Shown here: positions 3,806 through 55,150 of the stretch, in pieces | Position numbering within the stretch: the first letter of the stretch is position 1 | Layout: every line of letters starts with the position of its first letter | Assembly (NCBI GenBank): GCA_951406725.2 | Contig: OX597827.1 | Span: forward strand, 21,142,001 to 21,206,000 | Length of the DNA stretch: 64,000 nt | Source of the DNA: Octopus vulgaris | Taxonomy: Eukaryota | Reading direction: 5' to 3' | The notes under the pieces: generated by a model | Database searches by the model: none | What the model was told of the DNA's origin: nothing | The model's input: only the letters and a program-made list of their open reading frames with translations | Position numbers and translations under genes: made by a program

Positions 3806-4649
3806 CTAGCAGAATTGCCCGGCGTTGCTCGGGGCTGAATTGCTTGAAAGTACTGTTAATGATTGCACTGAATTATGATGATTATTCAGGCAAATATTGA
3901 TATAAGCTTACGGTGGGAGATAAGGACTTAACGATCAAACGTGTGCCATTGCATTGTTTTGGGGGAACCAAATTTCTGATGAGCATTATAGGGGCACCAA
4001 CTTTAAGTTTGAGAATGTGTGGTGGTAGTCCGGGGTGCTCAAAGGAATTGAGTACCTCTATTGGATAGTTGATGACGTCCTCTGGGTCAGGAGTTGTATC
4101 GATAGACTGATATACATAGACTTCCCCAGGAATGAGTTTTAGCATTTCATCATTAATATGGTGAACAGTTTTATTCCTCGGGGCCAGTATAGCCTTTTTG
4201 CCAATCCAATCCATATTCTGATAATTAGCTTGTAGATCTGGGAACACTGCATCTCTGAGATCAGAAGGCGTCTTAACAATGGTACAAATGGAATCGATGG
4301 CAATATTACCATTTTCATCCCCTGGTATTTTGCCTTCGCCAAGTGCAAGGAGGGTGTGAGGAAATGCTGCTGATGTGATATTACGTCGCATATGAGCACG
4401 CATATTGGTGTGAAGTTTGAGAGTTACTTCCCTTTACTTAAAAAATATGCATTAAAATGGAAAAAAATGATGGTAAATTATTTGTAAAATCATAGACTCA
4501 TCGTAGACGCGCGCTAATACCCAGAAGGGCTCGATATGAATCACGACTATAAGATACCCGGTTTTGGTTAAACTGCATCGCAAAATGTGGGAGTAGTTAG
4601 GAATCTAAATCGGAGTAGACAGACACACAACCTTTCTTTTATATATAAA
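3806..4649 (-). mobile_element. Internally deleted Helitron carrying a PIF1 helicase fragment
   Basis: 3' end GCAACGCCGGGC...CTAG|T. ORF 3882-4403 contains AILAPRN, PGLPPHILKLKVGAPIMLIRNL and CNGTRL (PIF1 motifs). 5' part shared with the copies at 19417 and 61295. Confidence 0.92.
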
Positions 4650-6542: not shown

Positions 6543-6905
6543 TCTCTATATATATAAACGGCAAAATGTCTGCGTGCGTGTCCTTTATACAAATCCACAA
6601 TTTTTCAGTTAGAGGGCTCGCACTTTCTATGGTCATTTAAAACCGTCCAAGGGTGGTCATGCACATCTTTACATTTCCCCAGTCACCCCGCAAAGCCATT
6701 AAAAAATCAATAGAAGTGATTTTTGGTGAATTTTCTATCCAAAACCCAATCAAAATGCCCGAAACTTGATTCGCCAATTGAATGCCAGCTAGCTATATGT
6801 GATTGGTCGGAGATTTGGACAGTACTCGCGTGTATGTGTGCACGCACGCAGCTGTATATGCATGCGCTAGCACTATGACCCGGCGTTGCTGGGTCATAAT
6901 GCTAG
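6543..6905 (+). mobile_element. Non-autonomous Helitron
   Basis: A|TCTCTATATATATAAA start, subterminal hairpin ATGACCCGGC-GTT-GCTGGGTCAT, CTAG|T end. Inserted in AT with no TSD. Confidence 0.88.
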
Positions 6906-7672
6906 TATATAATATAGAACGGTGTTAAGAGCGTTTGAAGATATCTATGAGTCGATGTGGAAAGCTTGTACGAGATGGGACTAATTGATGAAGAGAGGAT
7001 TTGCAAAATACTCAGCTTCCGAGCTAGCGGCATCGGTGTAGGGGGGAAGAGGAGTTGAGGATGCTGTACTCCCTAAAGACAACGACTAGGGAGAGGAGTG
7101 GAGTGAGATAAACATCCTCAACACAGGAAGGGATGTGGTCGAAGAGATTCTCGTGATTTCAGGAGTTAAAAGATCGGAAGAGGAAGCAGATGGTTTAGAA
7201 GAATTGGTGGCGAGAGACTTGTTGCTGATATCCAGGTTAGTAACATCAAAAAATGGAGTTTCCCCATTCTCGCAGTCACTCATCTCTCTCGATTGAGCCA
7301 ATCGTCTCTGTCATGAACATAGATACCACCTTTCAGGATCAAGATACAATGGACAGTGAAGCGTGGACAGCTGAGAGGAGTTGAATACTGGCTTTGAGAA
7401 ATCGGTGTCTCGAAGACAAAAGAGGATGTGACACTCGTAGAATGGAACAACATCCATAGCAGAGAAGGGAAAAGTGTTCAGAGGATTTTTTTAATGCATT
7501 TCGAGACGTGTAGGGGGAGTGGTGGTTCATTGAAAGATCATTGCAACCTTCTGACGCCTGAACCGAATGCTTACAACAGAGTAAACTCTGCTAAAAGTAC
7601 CCAAGAACTAAGTGGAAGAACCACACCCGGTGGTATCATAAAAATATGGGCATAGATACATACATCTACCTA

Positions 7673-20150: not shown

Positions 20151-20856
20151 AAAGTAATATAGCCCCTTGTTTGTATTATAGTGCATTGTTGTGTCATTCA
20201 AAACATTTTGTTCTTTACAAACAATTCACAATGCTTCAAGCAAACTACAATACTCTCCAAACAGTTTATTAATTGTGAGGAGATTAAAAAAGATTCTTTG
20301 TTTTGAAACCTGAAGAACTTTATGCCCGACAGAATGAAGAATTTTCCAAATAGATGTGGTCATGTTATCAATAATGAGGAGACAAATAATATTTTGATTA
20401 ATATGTTTCAATTAAGACCAAAGAAGCATTTGTCCCTTTACCATCTTGAAATGTGACAATTGGTCCCAGGGTAGAGAAGAAGAGACTTGCCCAAGGTGCC
20501 ACACAGTGGGACTGAACCTGAAAATACAGGGTTGGAAAGAAAACTTCTTAACCACATAGCTATCCATGCTTGCACCTAATACACACACACACACACACGT
20601 GAAGTCGTGGCTGTGTAGTAAGAATTTTGCTTCCCAACCACATGGTTCCAGGTTCAGTCCCACTGCATGGCACTTTGGGCAAGTGTCTTCTGTTATAGCC
20701 TCAGACCAGCGGTGGTGATGGAGGAGGAGGAGGAGGAGGCAGTGATGGTGACACTGATATTCATAATGTTGAATGGAGAGAGAGAGAGAGAGAGTGGGAG
20801 AAGAGATTAATATTCACATGGGGGAGAGAAACATGTGGGAAAAGAGGAGAGAAAAA

Positions 20857-21467
20857 TGATGATGGTGATGATGGTGATGCTGTTTATTTCTTGTTTGTGA
20901 CACTTGCTGTTTGTTTGGTGGTGGTGGTGGTGGTGGTGCTGATTGTGGGGCTGGTGGTTGTGGTGGTGGTGGTGCTGCTGCAGGTGGTGGGTGGTGGTGC
21001 TGGTGCTGGTGCTGATGGTGGGGGTGGTGGTGGTGGTGGTGCTGGTTGTGGTGGTGGTGGTGCTGGTTGTGGTGGTGGTGGTGTTGGTTGTGGTGGTGGT
21101 GGTGCTGGTTGTGGTGGTGCTGGTTGTGGTGGTACTGGTGGTTGTGGTGGTGGTGTTGGTTGTGGTGGTGCTGGTTGTGGTGGTGGTGGTGCTGGTTGTG
21201 GTGATGGTGGTGGTGCTGGTTGTGGTGGTGGTGGTGCTGGTTGTGGTGGTGCTGGTTGTGGTGGTGGTGGTGGTGGTTGTGGTGATGGTGGTGGTGCTGG
21301 TTGTGGTGGTGGTGGTGCTGATTGTGGGGCTGGTGGTTGTGGTGGTGCTGGTTATAGTGATGGTGGTAGTGGTGGTGGTGGTGCTGGTTGTGGTGCTGGT
21401 TGTGGTGGTGGTGGTGCTGGTTGTGGTGGTGCTGGTTGTGGTGGTGGTGGTGTTGGTTGTGGTGGTA
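20857..21467. repeat. (GGT)n-based compound minisatellite with GCT-GGT-TGT units
   Basis: Direct reading. Triplet repeat, open in several frames. Confidence 0.92.
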
Positions 21468-21660
21468 ATCCATCATTTCAATGATGCTGGAGACAACAAC
21501 ATTGCTCAATGACGATTACTGCCATTAAGGGACAGACATGAAATAAATAGTTGTTTTTATATTTTAAATTTTAGTTCACAAAAATCCATGGCCGGCTCCT
21601 TGCAGCCATCACCACCACCTCCTCTAGTATATAACAACCTACCAATATTATCACAGCTCT

Positions 21661-21707
<47 letters not shown>

Positions 21708-23656
21708 TGTGGTAAAGAAGCTTGCTTTGCAATGCAGTGGTCTTGGGTTCTGTTTCAGTGCACAGCACATTATGCAGGTATCTTCCACTATAGCCCTGGG
21801 CTAAACAAAGACTCCTGAGTGGATTCGCTGGATCGAACTGAAACGTGTGTGTGTGTGTTTCTCAAATCTCCGAGTATGTTTATGTGTTGGTGATCAACCA
21901 TGGCTTCCCTAATGAAGTCATTTACTTGCAGACCACCATGAAAATATATCCATGTTTTTTTCTTTATCATGTGTCCGTGTGTCACAGAATCATCTTTGTA
22001 TATAAAGGAATAACACTTATTGCTTTGTAACACGACTTCCAGAAAAACACACACACAAAACACGTACATATATAGGCAATATCAAATATATCTAAATACA
22101 ACAATGATGATGATGATACATATATACATACATATATATACACATATGTATATATATATATGAATATGATGATGATGATATATACATGGTGGACTCTCCC
22201 GTCAAGGACGAAATATGAGCATTTAGCTTTTGCCGAACAACCTGCACAAATTATTTGTTTATAAGAGATCAAAATGTTCGTGCCACACATTAGCTTACTC
22301 TCACAATCAAATCAACAGTACCTGAATAGGTGTCACAGTGTGCCATGCATCAGGTGCCAAAGTGATTGCAGAGCAACATGAAATAAAGTATTTTGCTCAA
22401 GAACACAACACACCGCCCGGTCTAGGAATTGAACCCATGATTGGTAGACTGCGAGTGCAATGGCCTAACCACTAAGTCACGCACTCTCACTGATATATCT
22501 ATATATCATCGTTGTCATCGTTTAACGTCCGCTTTCCAGGCTGGCATGGGTTGGACTGTTTGACTGAGGACTGGAAAGGCAGGACGCTGCACCAGGCTTC
22601 AACCCTTCCTAACGCCAACCACTCCGAGAATGTAGTAGGTGCTTTATACATGCCACCGGCACAGGAGCCGGTCAGAGGGCACTGGCATCGGCCACATTCA
22701 GATGGTGCCACATATATATGTGTGTTTGCATCATCATCATCATTGTATGTAAATATATTTGACATTGTCTATATATGTACGCGTTTTGTGAGTGTGTGGG
22801 GGTGTTTCTGAAAACTGTGTTACAGCTGGAAAAAAAAAGGTCCAAAGGGTCAACCAAATCATGGAACCAAACTGTAGTAGCAACAGCAGGGTTCAGTTGG
22901 AATCCCATAAAACCCAAACGTAAACCGACAAGGATCTACAGGAAATTTGCAGGGACCGGTTGAAAAATTACAGGACCAGCTACATATCTGAAGGGATCAA
23001 ATGAGTGCTGGCCGATAGGGGGAAACTGAAATTTTGTAGGGACCAGCTGGAAGCTTGAGGAGAGTAGCTGAAAGATTGCAGGAATCAGACGAAATCTTTA
23101 ATTCTGTAAAACAGCCAGAAATTATTGCTTTTCTGTGTTAAGTGAAACATTTTGTGAGACCTGAAACCAAAATAAACATTTAAAATAAAATAAAAATGTG
23201 TAAATAGATCAGCTATTTTAATGTTATATCCCCACCCTCGTTCCATCTCCAAGATAAATGTGGAATCAATAATAATGAGAAAATAAGGGTCGATACATCC
23301 TGGCTCCTGAGTGGTAGTGGTCGGCGGGTAAAGGAAAGGCATGTCCTAATGGAAGCTGAGAGAGAGAGACAATGAAGAAACAGCAATTGTTGCCCAAGAG
23401 CAAGATTGGTGCCACTTGCTGGACACGTTTTGGATCAAACATAAGAGTTGAGGGAATGTTACAGTTGTGTTGATATGCTTCTTCAGTCTAAATATAATTT
23501 AAATCCTTCATTTGGTTTTTGTGTTTTGGTTCTATTTCGACGGAACATTCTGGCTTTTTTTTCCACCATTCTTTGTTTCCTATCCTTGTTCGTTTGTTCT
23601 GTACACAGAATCATTGCTCGTTAATTTTCATGTTCGGACGGCACCACTGCAGCCCT

Positions 23657-23690
23657 CGCCCCTTCTCCAGCTGGCACCAGAGAAGGGGCA
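23657..23690 (-). promoter_or_regulatory. GC-rich RNA stem-loop just 3' of the KCTD9 stop codon
   Basis: Perfect 10-bp arms GCCCCTTCTC / GAGAAGGGGC (23689-23680 and 23667-23658), extendable by G-U pairs. Function is inferred only. Confidence 0.5.
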
Positions 23691-23698
23691 TGCACGTG

Positions 23699-23815
23699 TC
23701 AGCGCAACGTCTGCGACATATGAAGTGCATTCAGCATTAACTTGAATGTGGCACCAGTCAGGTTGGCTCCGCGCAGGTTTGCATCCTGCAAGTCGGAGCC
23801 TGAAAGGTCACAGTT
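23699..23815 (-). CDS. KCTD9: KCTD9 terminal coding exon
   Basis: ctcttttcag acceptor, 117 nt. NCDLSGSDLQDANLRGANLTGATFKLMLNALHMSQTLR*, with TGA at 23701-23699. Cf. KCTD9 C-terminus LHMSQSVR. Confidence 0.96.
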   Translation of the reverse strand, partial: NCDLSGSDLQDANLRGANLTGATFKLMLNALHMSQTLR

Positions 23816-24189
23816 CTGAAAAGAGAAAATGAAATTTTTGTTATTTATACTTTATATATTTTTTACATAATTATTTTTTTGAATGTTTGAACATAAGTCA
23901 AACTTTTTAAATACCTGCACATTGATTATAGTTTAGAGGAGGGTAATTAGAGAGGTGTGTGTGAAGTGAGATCACAGAGTGGAGGTGGGACTGACCATGT
24001 GGTTCATCAATTCTTCGCTTATAATTTAAGGGCAAAAAATGTCTTTGAACAGAATATTTAATTGGAGAGAAGAAAATCTGGAATTGTGACCTGAAATCTG
24101 GTCCCCTATCTGTAGGGTGATGTTTCTCTGGTTTGTTCAGAACCATGAAAAAAAAGTAACTCAACTTCTCTTAAGAGTTTCTTATGAGG

Positions 24190-34975: not shown

Positions 34976-35067
34976 ATGATAAAGAATTGAATACAATTGA
35001 ATACAGAATGTTTTCTAAAATCTCGTGAAAATATAGAAAGGATTTACAAAACTGTCCCTTTTTCCTT

Positions 35068-35441
35068 CTTTATTTGCTGAGTGTGGAGGAAGGGTCAGAG
35101 CCCATGACCTTTGTTCTTTATTTGCTGAGTGTGGAGGAAGGGTCAGAGCCCATGACCTTTGTTTTTTATTTGCTGAGTGTGGAGGAAGGGTCAGAGCCCA
35201 TGACCTTTGTTCTTTATTTGCTGAGTGTGGAAGAAGGGTCAGAGCCCATGACCTTTGTTCTTTATTTGCTGAGTGTGGAGGAAGGGTCAGAGACCATGAC
35301 CTTTGTTCTTTATTTGCTGAGTGTGGAGGAAGGGTCAGAGACCATGACCTTTGTTCTTTATTTGTTGAGTGTGGAGGAAGGGTCAAAGCCCATGACCTTT
35401 GTTCTTTATTTGCTGTGGAAGGGTCAGAGCCCATGACCTTT
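35068..35441. repeat. 48-bp minisatellite, about 7.8 copies, intronic
   Basis: Unit CTTTATTTGCTGAGTGTGGAGGAAGGGTCAGAGCCCATGACCTTTGTT with no spacers. Confidence 0.95.
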
Positions 35442-36033
35442 CTGGACTCCAAGACTGGTTGAGGTTGATGTGGTTTGTGTTCTGTTTAGGTAAACATCTC
35501 CAGGAAAGACAGGAGCAGGAAAAAACTCATCCTGCAATGGGGAAAAAGGATTGGGCAAAGTGATTAGTGTGGGGGGAAAGAAGGAGATTGTATTATACCC
35601 CCAAGAGAGATGAGAGGTGGAGAGACAAGCGGGTGAGAGGTGCCTGAGAGGTGGAAGTATGAAACCAGTGAGCTGGTAGAAACAGGGGCCATTACGGTAG
35701 TTTGCATCAGGGAAAGAAGGAACACAGCAAAAGCCAAGTTAAATAACCATGCAAGCATCAAATAGGAAAGAGACACAATTGGACATTATGGAAGCAAAAA
35801 TATAAAAACCACACAATGAACCCTCTATATGTCGCTCAACCTGCTAAAAATATCAGCTTAAATCATACCCTACTGTCTTAAAGATAAAGGAACACCTTGA
35901 ATAATGGGGTCTCAGCTATGCTGTGTCTGAAAAATAAAATAAGCTGAAGTGGTCATGGCTGGGATGGCATTGATTATAGAGATCTACTCAATGCTGGCTG
36001 ACCTGGGGCTAAACAACAAACACTTTTACTCAC

Positions 36034-52344: not shown

Positions 52345-55150
52345 CTGACGATTTGACTGAGGACTGGCAAACCTGATGGCTGCACCAGGCTCCAATCTGA
52401 TCAGGCAGAGTTTCTACAGCTGGATGCCCTTCCTAATGCCAACCTCTCCGAGAGTGTAGTGGGTGCTTTTTACATGCCACCGGCACGAGGGCCAGTTAGC
52501 GGGTACTGACAACAGCCACGCTCAAATAATGTTTTTTACGTGCCACCTGCACAGGAGCCAGTCCAGCAGCACTGACAATAACCTCGCTTGAATGTTTTTT
52601 CACATGCCACCGGCACAAGTGCTAGTAAGGCGACGCTGGTAACGATCACGCTCGAATGGTGCTTTTTAGGTACCACCGGCATGGAAGCCAGTTAGCACTC
52701 CACTAGCACGGATGCCAGTCATCAAATTTGATTTTGATATCGATTTCACTTGCTTCAACAGGTTTTCGTAAGCAGAGTTTAGTGTCCAATGAAGGAAACA
52801 TATGCATAAATGGGCTGGTTACACCCCTGGCATAGGCCATGAGGTTATGGTCTCACTTGGCTTGCCGGGTCTTCCCAAGCACAGCATATTTTTAAAGGTC
52901 TCAGTCACTAGTCATTGCCTCGGTGAGGCCTAAGGTTCGAAGGTCATGCTTCACCACCTCGTCCCAGGTCTTCCTGGGTCTACCTCTTCCACAGATTTCC
53001 TCAACCGCTAGGGTGTGGCACTTTTTCACACAACTATCTTCATCTATTCTCGCCACATGACCATACCAGCGCGAACGTCTCTCTTGCACACCACAACTGA
53101 TGTTCCTTATGTCCAACTTTTCTCTCAAGGTACTTACACTCTGTCGAGTATGAACACTGACATTACACATCCATCGGAGCACACTGGCTTCATTTCTTGC
53201 GAGCTTATGCATATCCTCAGCAGTCACGGCCCATGTTTCACTGCCATGTAGCATGGCTGTTCATACACATGCGCCATACACTCTACCTTTTACTCTGAGC
53301 GACAGGCCCATTGTCACCAGTAGAGGTAAGAGCTCTCTGAACTTAGCTCAGACTATTCTTATTCTAGCAGCTACACTTTCAGCGCACCTTCCCTTGCTAC
53401 TGACTTGGTTACCTAGGTAATGGAAGCTATCAACTACTTCTAATTTTTCTCCATGGAATGTGGCGGAAGTTGTTCTCTGCAGATTTTCAGTGTTGATTGC
53501 TCCTGAGAATCTGCCACATACAAAAACTATCTTCCCAGTTAGCCTTCCTTTGATATTGCTACACTTTTTATATATCCATAGCTTACACTGGGTACATCTT
53601 ATAGAGTTTCTACCTACGCCTTTTCTACAGATCGATCAGGGCCAACTACCTGAAGGGATTTGTGGTTTGTCAGCCTTCCTACTTATTAGGACTTTGGTTT
53701 TAGCTAGGTTGACTCTAAGACCCTTTGATTCTAATCCTTGTTTCCACACCTGAAACTTGTTATGTTCTGATAGTGACTCAGCAATTAGAGCAAGGTTGTC
53801 AGCATAGAAGAGCTCCCATGGGCAAACTGTCTTGAATTCCTCTGTTATTGCCTGGAGGACTATGATAAATAGGAGGGGGCTGAGGACTGAACCTTGGTGG
53901 ACTCCTACCTCTACCCGGAATTCTTCACTGTACTCGCTGCCAACCCTCACCTCACTGACAGCATCCCTGTACATGGCTTGCACAGCTCTCACTAATCATT
54001 CATCTATCCCTAGTTTCCTCATTCATCACCAGATAAGGGATCGGGGCACCCTGCCAAAGGCTTTCTTCATGCCAATGAAAGCCAGGTACAGAAGTTTATC
54101 TTTGGCTAGGTATTTCTCCTGCAGCTGTCTTACCAGAAATATAGCATCAGTGGTGCTCTTCTCTGGCACAAACCTAAACTGCATCTCATCTGAACTGACT
54201 CTCTCTCTAATTAGTTGGGCTATGACCCTCTCTGTGACCTTCATTACTTGATCCAACAACTTGATACCTCTGTAATTATTTGTATCTAAAGCGTCACCTT
54301 TACTTTTGTAGCAGTTGACTATGGTGCTGCTACACCAGTCATTGAATATGACTCCTTCGTGTATCACCTGGTTGACTATACAGGTGACTAGGCTATAGCC
54401 AACACTGCCAGATATTTTTAGCATTTCTGCAGTGATATCAGATGGGCCGGAGGCTTTCCCTGTCTTCATACTTTTAATTGCTTTATCTACAAAGGTACTG
54501 TCAACTCGGATAGCTGGTCCCTCTGTTGGGTCGACATTCGGCAGACTCTCTTTCTCCCATTCATTCTCTTTATTGAGCAACCTTTCATAGTGGTGTCTCC
54601 AAACCTCTCTCTTTGCAGCCTTGTTTAGTGCAAGTGAACCATCATCCATGTGGACACATTTCTCTCTTACAACATCACGATTCTCTCTCACACACTGTCT
54701 TGCAACACGAAATACCTCAAGTCTTTGGTCTTCACAGCGCAGAACATTGGCAAATTTTTCTTAACTGCTTCCCCTCTGGCTAAATACACCTGCCTCCAAG
54801 CTTCCCTTCTGGCAGTTTGATACACTTCTCTGCTACCACCATTCTTCCAGTCCTTCCAAGCCTGTTTCTTTTCTCTAATAGCCCTGTCAACAACATTGTT
54901 CCACAACCACGTTATTTTGGGTCAAGAGGGGACTTTGCACCATCCACAGATCTGGTCAGTGGCCCTCAGCAGGTTGTCCCATAGAAACCTCCAGTTGTCT
55001 TCTACATCATGTGAAGCTATATCCCTTTCTATTCCGTTAAAGGCTTCAAGTAATATGTCTCTAAATCTCTGTCCATTCAAAGGATCTTTAAGCTTCCAGA
55101 CCCTTCTGCTCCATGCTGGTCATCTTCTGGGCATCCACTTAGCCCTAAAC
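52345..55150 (-). mobile_element. RTE-clade LINE, 5'-truncated, with degraded reverse transcriptase
   Basis: NNYRGIKLL, STTDAIF, KAFGRVPR, GVHQGSVLSPLLF, LFYADNL, LRVNLAKTKV, LHGSETW, RGRPRKTW, followed by a repetitive 3' UTR. Confidence 0.95.

What the first reader, a model, noticed from the sequence alone, without database searches (positions are those of the whole stretch)
23621..23701. Candidate stop-codon readthrough/recoding cassette in KCTD9: UGA-C, 8-9 nt spacer, GC stem-loop, 25-codon extension
Seen: the mRNA reads ...TTG CGC TGA CACGTGCA T-GCCCCTTCTC-TGGTGCCAGCTG-GAGAAGGGGC-G. This is a perfect 10-bp stem, extendable by G-U pairs, in a GC-rich patch of an otherwise AT-rich UTR. The frame stays open as HVHAPSLVPAGEGARAAVVPSEHEN to TAA at 23623-23621. 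Established: UGA-C is the leakiest stop context, and stem-loops starting about 8 nt 3' of the stop stimulate readthrough (alphavirus nsP3/4; related structures in Drosophila headcase and the SELENON SRE). Coleoids also recode mRNA heavily by A-to-I editing, which could turn UGA into UGI (Trp). Inference: an extended isoform that masks the conserved LHMSQxxR C-terminus. I know of no report of this for KCTD9.
Basis: partly seen in the sequence, partly recalled or inferred. Interest (0 to 1): 0.72.

Follow-up and report, generated by a model that had tools for sequence, protein, structure and literature searches.

The report
Hairpin-assisted leaky stop in octopus KCTD9
An octopus gene for the ubiquitin-ligase adaptor KCTD9 has, nine bases after its stop codon, an unusually strong predicted RNA hairpin of the kind that lets ribosomes run past stops in viruses and flies, so a minority of ribosomes likely make a 26-residue-longer protein; this is untested and could not be checked in other cephalopods.

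Summary
KCTD9 (minus strand) ends in TGA at 23701-23699, followed by C, a 9-nt spacer, a 14-pair hairpin (23689-23658) and 25 open codons to TAA 23623-23621. The hairpin is far beyond chance: -27 kcal/mol, against a best of -14.9 behind 87 other octopus stops. 0 of 12,000 shuffles match it at that spacing. It is the only such hairpin outside a microsatellite and a 173-copy repeat in 645 kb scanned. Geometry matches the alphavirus/kelch class of readthrough stimulators. The open frame itself is uninformative (22 of 87 controls as long) and its coding signal is mixed. The cassette is not pan-animal: 46 non-cephalopod KCTD9 ends use all three stops and none has a comparable hairpin. The decisive tests (cephalopod UTR conservation, reads, ribosome data) could not be run. 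A-to-I editing of the UGA is unlikely (5' G, unpaired A). Verdict: a good but unproven candidate for structure-stimulated readthrough (about 50%), a new member of a known kind. No report was found in the library searched.

The parts
23702..23815 (-). Last coding exon of KCTD9 (NCDLSG...LHMSQTLR), behind a strong T-rich acceptor
   Evidence: 100% identical to named Octopus vulgaris and O. sinensis KCTD9 over this exon
23699..23701 (-). Annotated stop TGA, followed by C (UGA-CAC-GUG)
23690..23698 (-). 9-nt spacer CACGUGCAU (8 nt if the U-G pair at 23690/23657 forms)
23658..23689 (-). Main hairpin: 14 pairs (10 Watson-Crick, then U-G, G-U, G-C, U-G), GCCA loop, about -27 kcal/mol; predicted readthrough stimulator
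   Evidence: unique in G000
23636..23655 (-). Second, weaker hairpin (7 pairs, probability about 0.65)
23624..23698 (-). In-frame 25-codon extension HVHAPSLVPAGEGARAAVVPSEHEN; no Pfam match
23621..23623 (-). Second stop TAA
23600..23718 (-). Possible outer helix: 23718-23704 (last codons of the CDS) pairs with 23617-23600 (just behind the second stop), 15 pairs, -16.9 kcal/mol, enclosing the cassette; found post hoc
   Evidence: best partner within 1 kb downstream; shuffle p 0.005
23670..23702 (-). Rival reading: branch-point-like CTGAC over the stop, pyrimidine tract and CAG ending at 23671 (cryptic acceptor, largely inside the stem)
   Evidence: sequence; no transcript evidence

Best explanation
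The octopus KCTD9 stop codon is likely a programmed leaky stop: it is UGA followed by C, and a predicted 14-pair RNA hairpin starts nine bases downstream, where it would sit at the ribosome's mRNA entrance and would slow termination, so a few percent of ribosomes likely insert an amino acid and add 26 residues. Shown: the sequence, the gene, the rarity of the hairpin. Predicted: the fold, which survives when the first 9 nt behind the stop are held unpaired as under a ribosome. Inferred by analogy: stimulation of readthrough, a level of a few percent (VEEV/SINV cassettes gave about 7%, a 3- to 14-fold gain over no stem), possible neuronal bias (kelch). Inferred: the inserted residue would be Trp, Cys or Arg (recalled knowledge of UGA decoding). 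Inferred: the long form would bury an otherwise length-invariant free C-terminus in some subunits of the predicted KCTD9 pentamer.
For: Hairpin -27.0 kcal/mol at spacer 6-12, against a best of -14.9 (an AT-rich repeat) behind 87 octopus GPCR stops (3 of 90 loci were dropped for a short ORF or flank). 0 of 12,000 shuffles match at that spacing. In 645,398 strand-bases scanned, 5 hits at or below -24 kcal/mol: this one, a microsatellite and a 173-copy repeat, the last two on both strands. This hairpin passes only on the mRNA strand. Rough chance expectation for UGA-C plus such a hairpin at that spacing is about 0.1 per genome (4/645 kb x 7 positions x 8/87 x about 25,000 genes; gene number recalled). 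Spacer and stem match Firth 2011 cassettes. Conserved structures follow 9-10% of insect readthrough stops and under 1% of others (PMC5100048). GC stays high to about the second stop, then falls. G is enriched at codon position 1 in frame (14 of 26 G, p 0.007, post hoc), and the in-frame reading scores best of three frames in all four Markov orders.
Against: No conservation data from any other cephalopod UTR. 46 distinct non-cephalopod KCTD9 ends (56 of 80 loci reach the stop) use TAA 20, TGA 18, TAG 8, and their best hairpin at this spacing is -18.2, so the cassette is not ancient. Markov coding tests are not significant against shuffles (p 0.12-0.58), and 5-23 of 87 control UTRs score as well. 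Extension length is ordinary. The rise in GC across the stop is matched by 9 of 87 controls. No protein carrying the extension was found among 100, 0, 150 and 120 listed hits; gene callers would not predict one, so this is weak. No CUAG motif. Abundant readthrough was reported only for Pancrustacea. The controls are one AT-rich gene family, and an ORF end there is not always the true stop. Near-invariant tail length could equally mean extensions are harmful.
Confidence: 0.5

Rival explanations
1. The hairpin is a neutral accident in a GC-rich start of the 3' UTR of one octopus lineage; termination is normal.
For: The finding was picked from a genome-wide scan, with a chance expectation near 0.1 per genome. 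No conservation is shown. Coding signal is not significant in Markov tests. It is absent from 46 other animal KCTD9 ends.
Against: 0 of 12,000 composition-matched shuffles; no other hairpin this strong outside the two repeats in 645 kb; spacer exactly in the known window.
Confidence: 0.25
2. The structure is selected but for another job: a double-stranded ADAR or protein-binding platform, for example with the outer helix directing recoding of the CAG (Gln) codon in LHMSQ to Arg, or control of mRNA stability or localisation.
For: An outer 15-pair helix joins the last codons to the sequence behind the second stop (-16.9 kcal/mol, shuffle p 0.005). Coleoids recode heavily (PMC8382921 abstract).
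Against: Such a role would not need a 9-nt spacer behind UGA-C. The helix was found post hoc. All seven cephalopod-type proteins seen keep Gln. No Rfam family reaches its gathering score in 22500-24000.
Confidence: 0.15
3. A-to-I editing converts the UGA itself to UGI (Trp), giving the same extension without ribosomal readthrough.
For: Heavy editing in coleoids; structure nearby.
Against: 5' G is the least preferred ADAR neighbour (PMC3113232 passages; data from frog and human enzymes). The A is 97% unpaired. The stop-loss case handled in coleoid editomes is UAG to UGG.
Confidence: 0.04
4. The region is a cryptic alternative 3' splice site (CTGAC branch point over the stop, pyrimidine tract, CAG at 23671) or a reinitiation site (AUG at 23691), giving the off-frame peptides LEKG...NEQ or MPLL...NEQ; the hairpin would hide it.
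For: Branch-like A 28 nt upstream of the AG; both frames are open for 19 and 26 codons.
Against: The tract is short and T-poor beside the true KCTD9 acceptors and lies inside the stem. All seven cephalopod-type proteins seen use the canonical last exon.
Confidence: 0.06

Closest known systems
Alphavirus nsP3/nsP4 UGA-C readthrough cassette (VEEV, SINV; Firth 2011, PMC3159437; abstract and passages read)
   Same: UGA-C, spacer 8-9 nt (VEEV) to 12 nt (SINV), stem of 10-12 bp, in-frame continuation.
   Different: Viral stems close loops of 100-150 nt; here a compact tetraloop hairpin, more like the benyvirus local stem-loop (9-nt spacer, 12-nt stem). The viral case is conserved and tested; this one is neither.
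Drosophila kelch readthrough (bioRxiv 10.1101/2020.06.22.165522 and PMC3159437; passages read)
   Same: Cellular gene for a BTB-type Cullin-3 adaptor, UGA, 8-nt spacer, predicted 14-bp stem, 3' structure needed for high readthrough.
   Different: kelch has UGA-AUG and a long second ORF, is conserved in 12 Drosophila species and reaches about 30% in neurons; the distal SL1 arm proved dispensable. KCTD9 has a 25-codon tail and no data.
SELENON (SEPN1) Sec redefinition element (as described in PMC3159437 passage)
   Same: Compact GC stem-loop just 3' of a UGA (6-nt spacer, 16 bp, 5-nt loop) that raises readthrough in cells even without SECIS.
   Different: Works at an internal Sec codon with a SECIS; no SECIS match here in 22500-24000, and the UGA is the conserved terminal stop.
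Vertebrate UGA-CUAG genes (AQP4, MAPK10, OPRK1, OPRL1, VDR; PMC5868278 passages)
   Same: UGA-C, short C-terminal extension.
   Different: They depend on the CUAG motif; this site reads CACG.

Membership tests
3' stem-loop-stimulated readthrough cassette (Firth 2011 class) | Leaky stop, usually UGA-C | tested here: met
   TGA-CAC
3' stem-loop-stimulated readthrough cassette (Firth 2011 class) | Stem of about 10-14 bp starting 7-12 nt 3' of the stop | tested here: met
   Predicted 14 pairs at spacer 8-9, p 0.97-1.0; range
3' stem-loop-stimulated readthrough cassette (Firth 2011 class) | Open in-frame second ORF with coding signature | tested here: inconclusive
   Open for 25 codons, but 22 of 87 controls are as long; G1 bias p 0.007, Markov p 0.12-0.58
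3' stem-loop-stimulated readthrough cassette (Firth 2011 class) | Stop and stem conserved in the clade, with compensatory changes | not tested
   No cephalopod UTR obtained (one search listed no run; one search gave only non-cephalopod ends). Absent outside cephalopods
3' stem-loop-stimulated readthrough cassette (Firth 2011 class) | Measured readthrough that depends on the stem | not testable with these tools
   Needs a reporter, Ribo-seq or mass spectrometry
UGA-CUAG motif readthrough | CUAG directly after UGA | tested here: not met
   CACG
Selenocysteine recoding (SRE + SECIS) | SECIS in the 3' UTR | tested here: inconclusive
   No SECIS family among 3 weak Rfam matches in 22500-24000; the UTR may extend further
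ADAR stop-loss editing | Target A in dsRNA without a 5' G (typically UAG) | tested here: not met
   5' G; A 97% unpaired
microRNA precursor | About 60-70 nt hairpin matching a known family | tested here: not met
   32-nt hairpin; Rfam miRNA hits of 16-20 bits against gathering scores of 76-90; arms not found in supplements of PMC9699675
Transposon terminal hairpin | Multi-copy in the genome | tested here: not met
   One locus in G000, against 173 exact copies for the hairpin at 6875-6897

The most novel reading that the evidence does not exclude
Octopus uses fly- and virus-style structure-stimulated stop-codon readthrough as a second recoding layer beside A-to-I editing. KCTD9 would be a recurrent target: an arthropod lineage in the metagenome loci also keeps UGA-CAC-AU with frame-preserving tails, so the invariant KCTD9 C-terminus would be a switch that was independently put under readthrough control twice.
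Probability: 0.2. Interest if true: 0.75.

Novelty: new member of a known kind. Interest (0 to 1): 0.5.

Why it matters
Abundant readthrough is described for insects and crustaceans, while cephalopods are known for editing. No mollusc case of hairpin-stimulated readthrough turned up in the searches run. A compact 32-nt element behind a terminal stop is easy to test in a reporter and would give a minimal cellular model of how a 3' stem lowers termination. It would also be a handle on the unexplained, length-invariant C-terminus of KCTD9.

Tried and rejected
Sequencing-run search (RNA, library word PACBIO, 921 nt): none was listed, which is no evidence. Degenerate C-terminal pattern in viral and prokaryote collections: 0 and 0. 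Searches for proteins carrying the extension: none; one search was swamped by pentapeptide repeats. Literature: KCTD9+readthrough 0; KCTD9+read-through+stop codon 0; KCTD9+octopus 0; stop codon readthrough+cephalopod 6, none on a cephalopod gene by title or abstract start; readthrough+stem-loop+mollusc 3; readthrough+octopus+ribosome profiling 2. CG14647 (recalled as the fly orthologue) and KCTD9 are absent from 2 of 3 supplementary files of PMC5100048; file 1 could not be searched and may hold the candidate list. KCTD9 is absent from the one supplement of PMC8382921; full editing-site tables were not seen. Two papers were not held. AlphaFold of the O. sinensis protein on a 20-row alignment: mean pLDDT 84, residues 405-409 under 50, so the tail's role is unresolved. 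IRE, SECIS, miRNA and transposon-end readings rejected. A second regular expression missed 12 loci and was replaced.

Full report
Gene and coordinates. The window carries KCTD9 on the minus strand; ten exons map between 50025 and 23702. The O. sinensis orthologue used as the query has KHA, BTB_2 and pentapeptide domains, and the last exon is identical to named Octopus vulgaris and O. sinensis proteins. The stop is TGA 23701-23699, followed by CACGUGCAU, a stem 23689-23676 / 23671-23658 with a GCCA loop, and an open frame of 25 codons to TAA 23623-23621. The 131-nt stretch and the hairpin each occur once in G000.

Is it more than chance? The hairpin is. Fold z-scores are -3.5 to -4.7 on 41-121 nt windows, -3.6 on a 140-nt window and -2.1 on a 142-nt window running into the A-rich UTR. 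Of 12,000 dinucleotide shuffles of the 75-nt extension, 0 gave -27.0 kcal/mol at spacer 6-12 and 3 gave it anywhere. As a real-sequence control I took 90 single-exon GPCR loci of the same genome (30 best plus 60 hand-picked of 152 matches); 87 were usable. Their best hairpin at that spacing was -14.9, in an AT-rich repeat, and their post-stop GC never exceeded 0.49, against 0.61 here. A scan of 645,398 strand-bases (40-nt windows, step 2, at least 14 G+C) found 5 hits at or below -24 kcal/mol: this hairpin on the mRNA strand only, a CA/TG microsatellite, and a hairpin with 173 exact copies in the genome. A rough genome-wide expectation for UGA-C plus such a hairpin at this spacing is about 0.1 (gene number recalled). 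The other parts are ordinary: UGA-C in 8 of 87 controls, extensions of 25 or more codons in 22 of 87, a comparable GC rise across the stop in 9 of 87. The control is one AT-rich family, and some ORF ends may not be true stops.

Does the extension look coding? Mixed. 14 of its 26 G lie at codon position 1 and 3 at position 2 (p 0.007, noticed before testing). The KCTD9 frame scored best in all four Markov orders trained on the GPCR CDS, but none was significant against shuffles (p 0.23, 0.12, 0.58, 0.33), and 10, 5, 23 and 19 of 87 control UTRs did as well. No Pfam match, and no database protein carries it, which says little because gene callers stop at UGA.

Relatives. At protein level the C-terminus is tightly fixed: 166 of 192 KCTD9 proteins end 8 residues from the start of the LHM motif, and all seven cephalopod-type records end LHMSQTLR. 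At DNA level only non-cephalopod ends were obtainable: 56 of 80 metagenome loci reach the stop, 46 distinct. They use TAA 20, TGA 18, TAG 8; UGA-C in 5; best hairpin at spacer 6-12 is -18.2. The cassette is therefore not pan-animal; it is at most cephalopod-wide. The one sequencing-run search listed nothing, so conservation among cephalopods, the test that matters most, is open.

Mechanism. Firth 2011 (PMC3159437; abstract and passages) describes stems of 10-14 bp set 7-12 nt behind the stop in alphaviruses, plant viruses and Drosophila kelch. In reporters the stem raised readthrough 3- to 14-fold to about 7%, and 8 nt may place a structure at the mRNA entrance channel. Jungreis 2016 (PMC5100048; passages) found conserved structures behind 9-10% of insect readthrough stops and under 1% of others, and abundant readthrough only in Pancrustacea. 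UGA-C alone gives about 0.7% (PMC5868278; passages). kelch, also a Cullin-3 adaptor, reads through at about 30% in neurons (bioRxiv 2020.06.22.165522; passages). The octopus hairpin keeps its full 14 pairs when the first 9 nt after the stop are forced open. I therefore commit to stem-stimulated near-cognate decoding of UGA at a few percent, at about 50%. KCTD9 is predicted to be a pentamer (PMC9658877; passages), so a minor long form would enter many oligomers; that consequence is inference. The AlphaFold model leaves residues 405-409 unresolved.

Rivals. Neutral accident (25%). Structure selected for another purpose (15%): a post hoc outer helix pairs the last codons with the sequence behind the second stop (-16.9 kcal/mol, best within 1 kb, shuffle p 0.005) and could serve ADAR at the Gln codon. 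Editing of the UGA (4%): the A has a 5' G, least favoured by ADARs (PMC3113232; passages), and is 97% unpaired; coleoid stop-loss editing was treated as UAG to UGG (PMC8382921; passages). Cryptic acceptor or reinitiation (6%): CTGAC, a short tract and CAG at 23671, and an AUG at 23691, exist but are weak and hidden in the stem. No Rfam family reaches its gathering score.

A side result. Five metagenome loci (three lineages, closest to insect-type proteins among those held) end LHMSQTIR-TGA-CAC-AT with tails of 17-37 codons. Between lineages 8-9 of 30 third positions upstream differ, while the 9 nt after the stop differ at 0-2 places; two near-identical loci differ by a 3-nt indel in the tail. 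This looks like independent insect-style readthrough of KCTD9 and is untested.

Novelty. Searches of the held library found no paper joining KCTD9 with readthrough or octopus, and none on readthrough of a cephalopod gene (listings only). Unseen supplements (file 1 of PMC5100048, editing-site tables) could bear on this. Earlier AI notes on this genome list other readthrough candidates; they are unchecked and were not used as evidence. Verdict: real feature, works like a known class if it works at all, membership unproven; interest 0.5.

Noticed in passing
L062:4614, L068:4455, L069:682, L077:4059, L080:4823: KCTD9 of an unidentified arthropod-like group keeps TGA-CAC-AT after LHMSQTIR despite about 30% third-position divergence, with 17-37-codon tails (HID.../HIV...) and a frame-preserving 3-nt indel; candidate independent readthrough.
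   Followed up: partly
window 6867-6906 (+): Strong hairpin followed by CTAG, with 173 exact copies of its core in G000; with a Pif1 helicase fragment at 3885-4433 (-) it looks like a Helitron 3' end (family label recalled).
   Followed up: partly
window 52904-54760 (-): Broken LINE-type reverse transcriptase (RVT_1 pieces with stops) upstream of the first mapped KCTD9 exon.
   Followed up: no
window 32342-32190 (-): The named O. vulgaris KCTD9 model (P0007, 359 aa) lacks this intact 51-codon exon, which the O. sinensis model has: annotation error or exon skipping.
   Followed up: no
L043:993-1250, L044:990-1440: The KCTD9 C-terminal coding stretch is tandemly repeated several times behind the stop in these transcript-like contigs.
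   Followed up: no
proteins P0031, P0049, P0054, P0083, P0085, P0062: Natural longer KCTD9 ends exist: TMTCDL in decapod crustaceans, 30 extra residues in two odonates, 24 in P0062.
   Followed up: no
window 20800-21500 and 35015-35485: Long trinucleotide-rich low-complexity tract and a 48-nt-period minisatellite give spurious ORFs.
   Followed up: no
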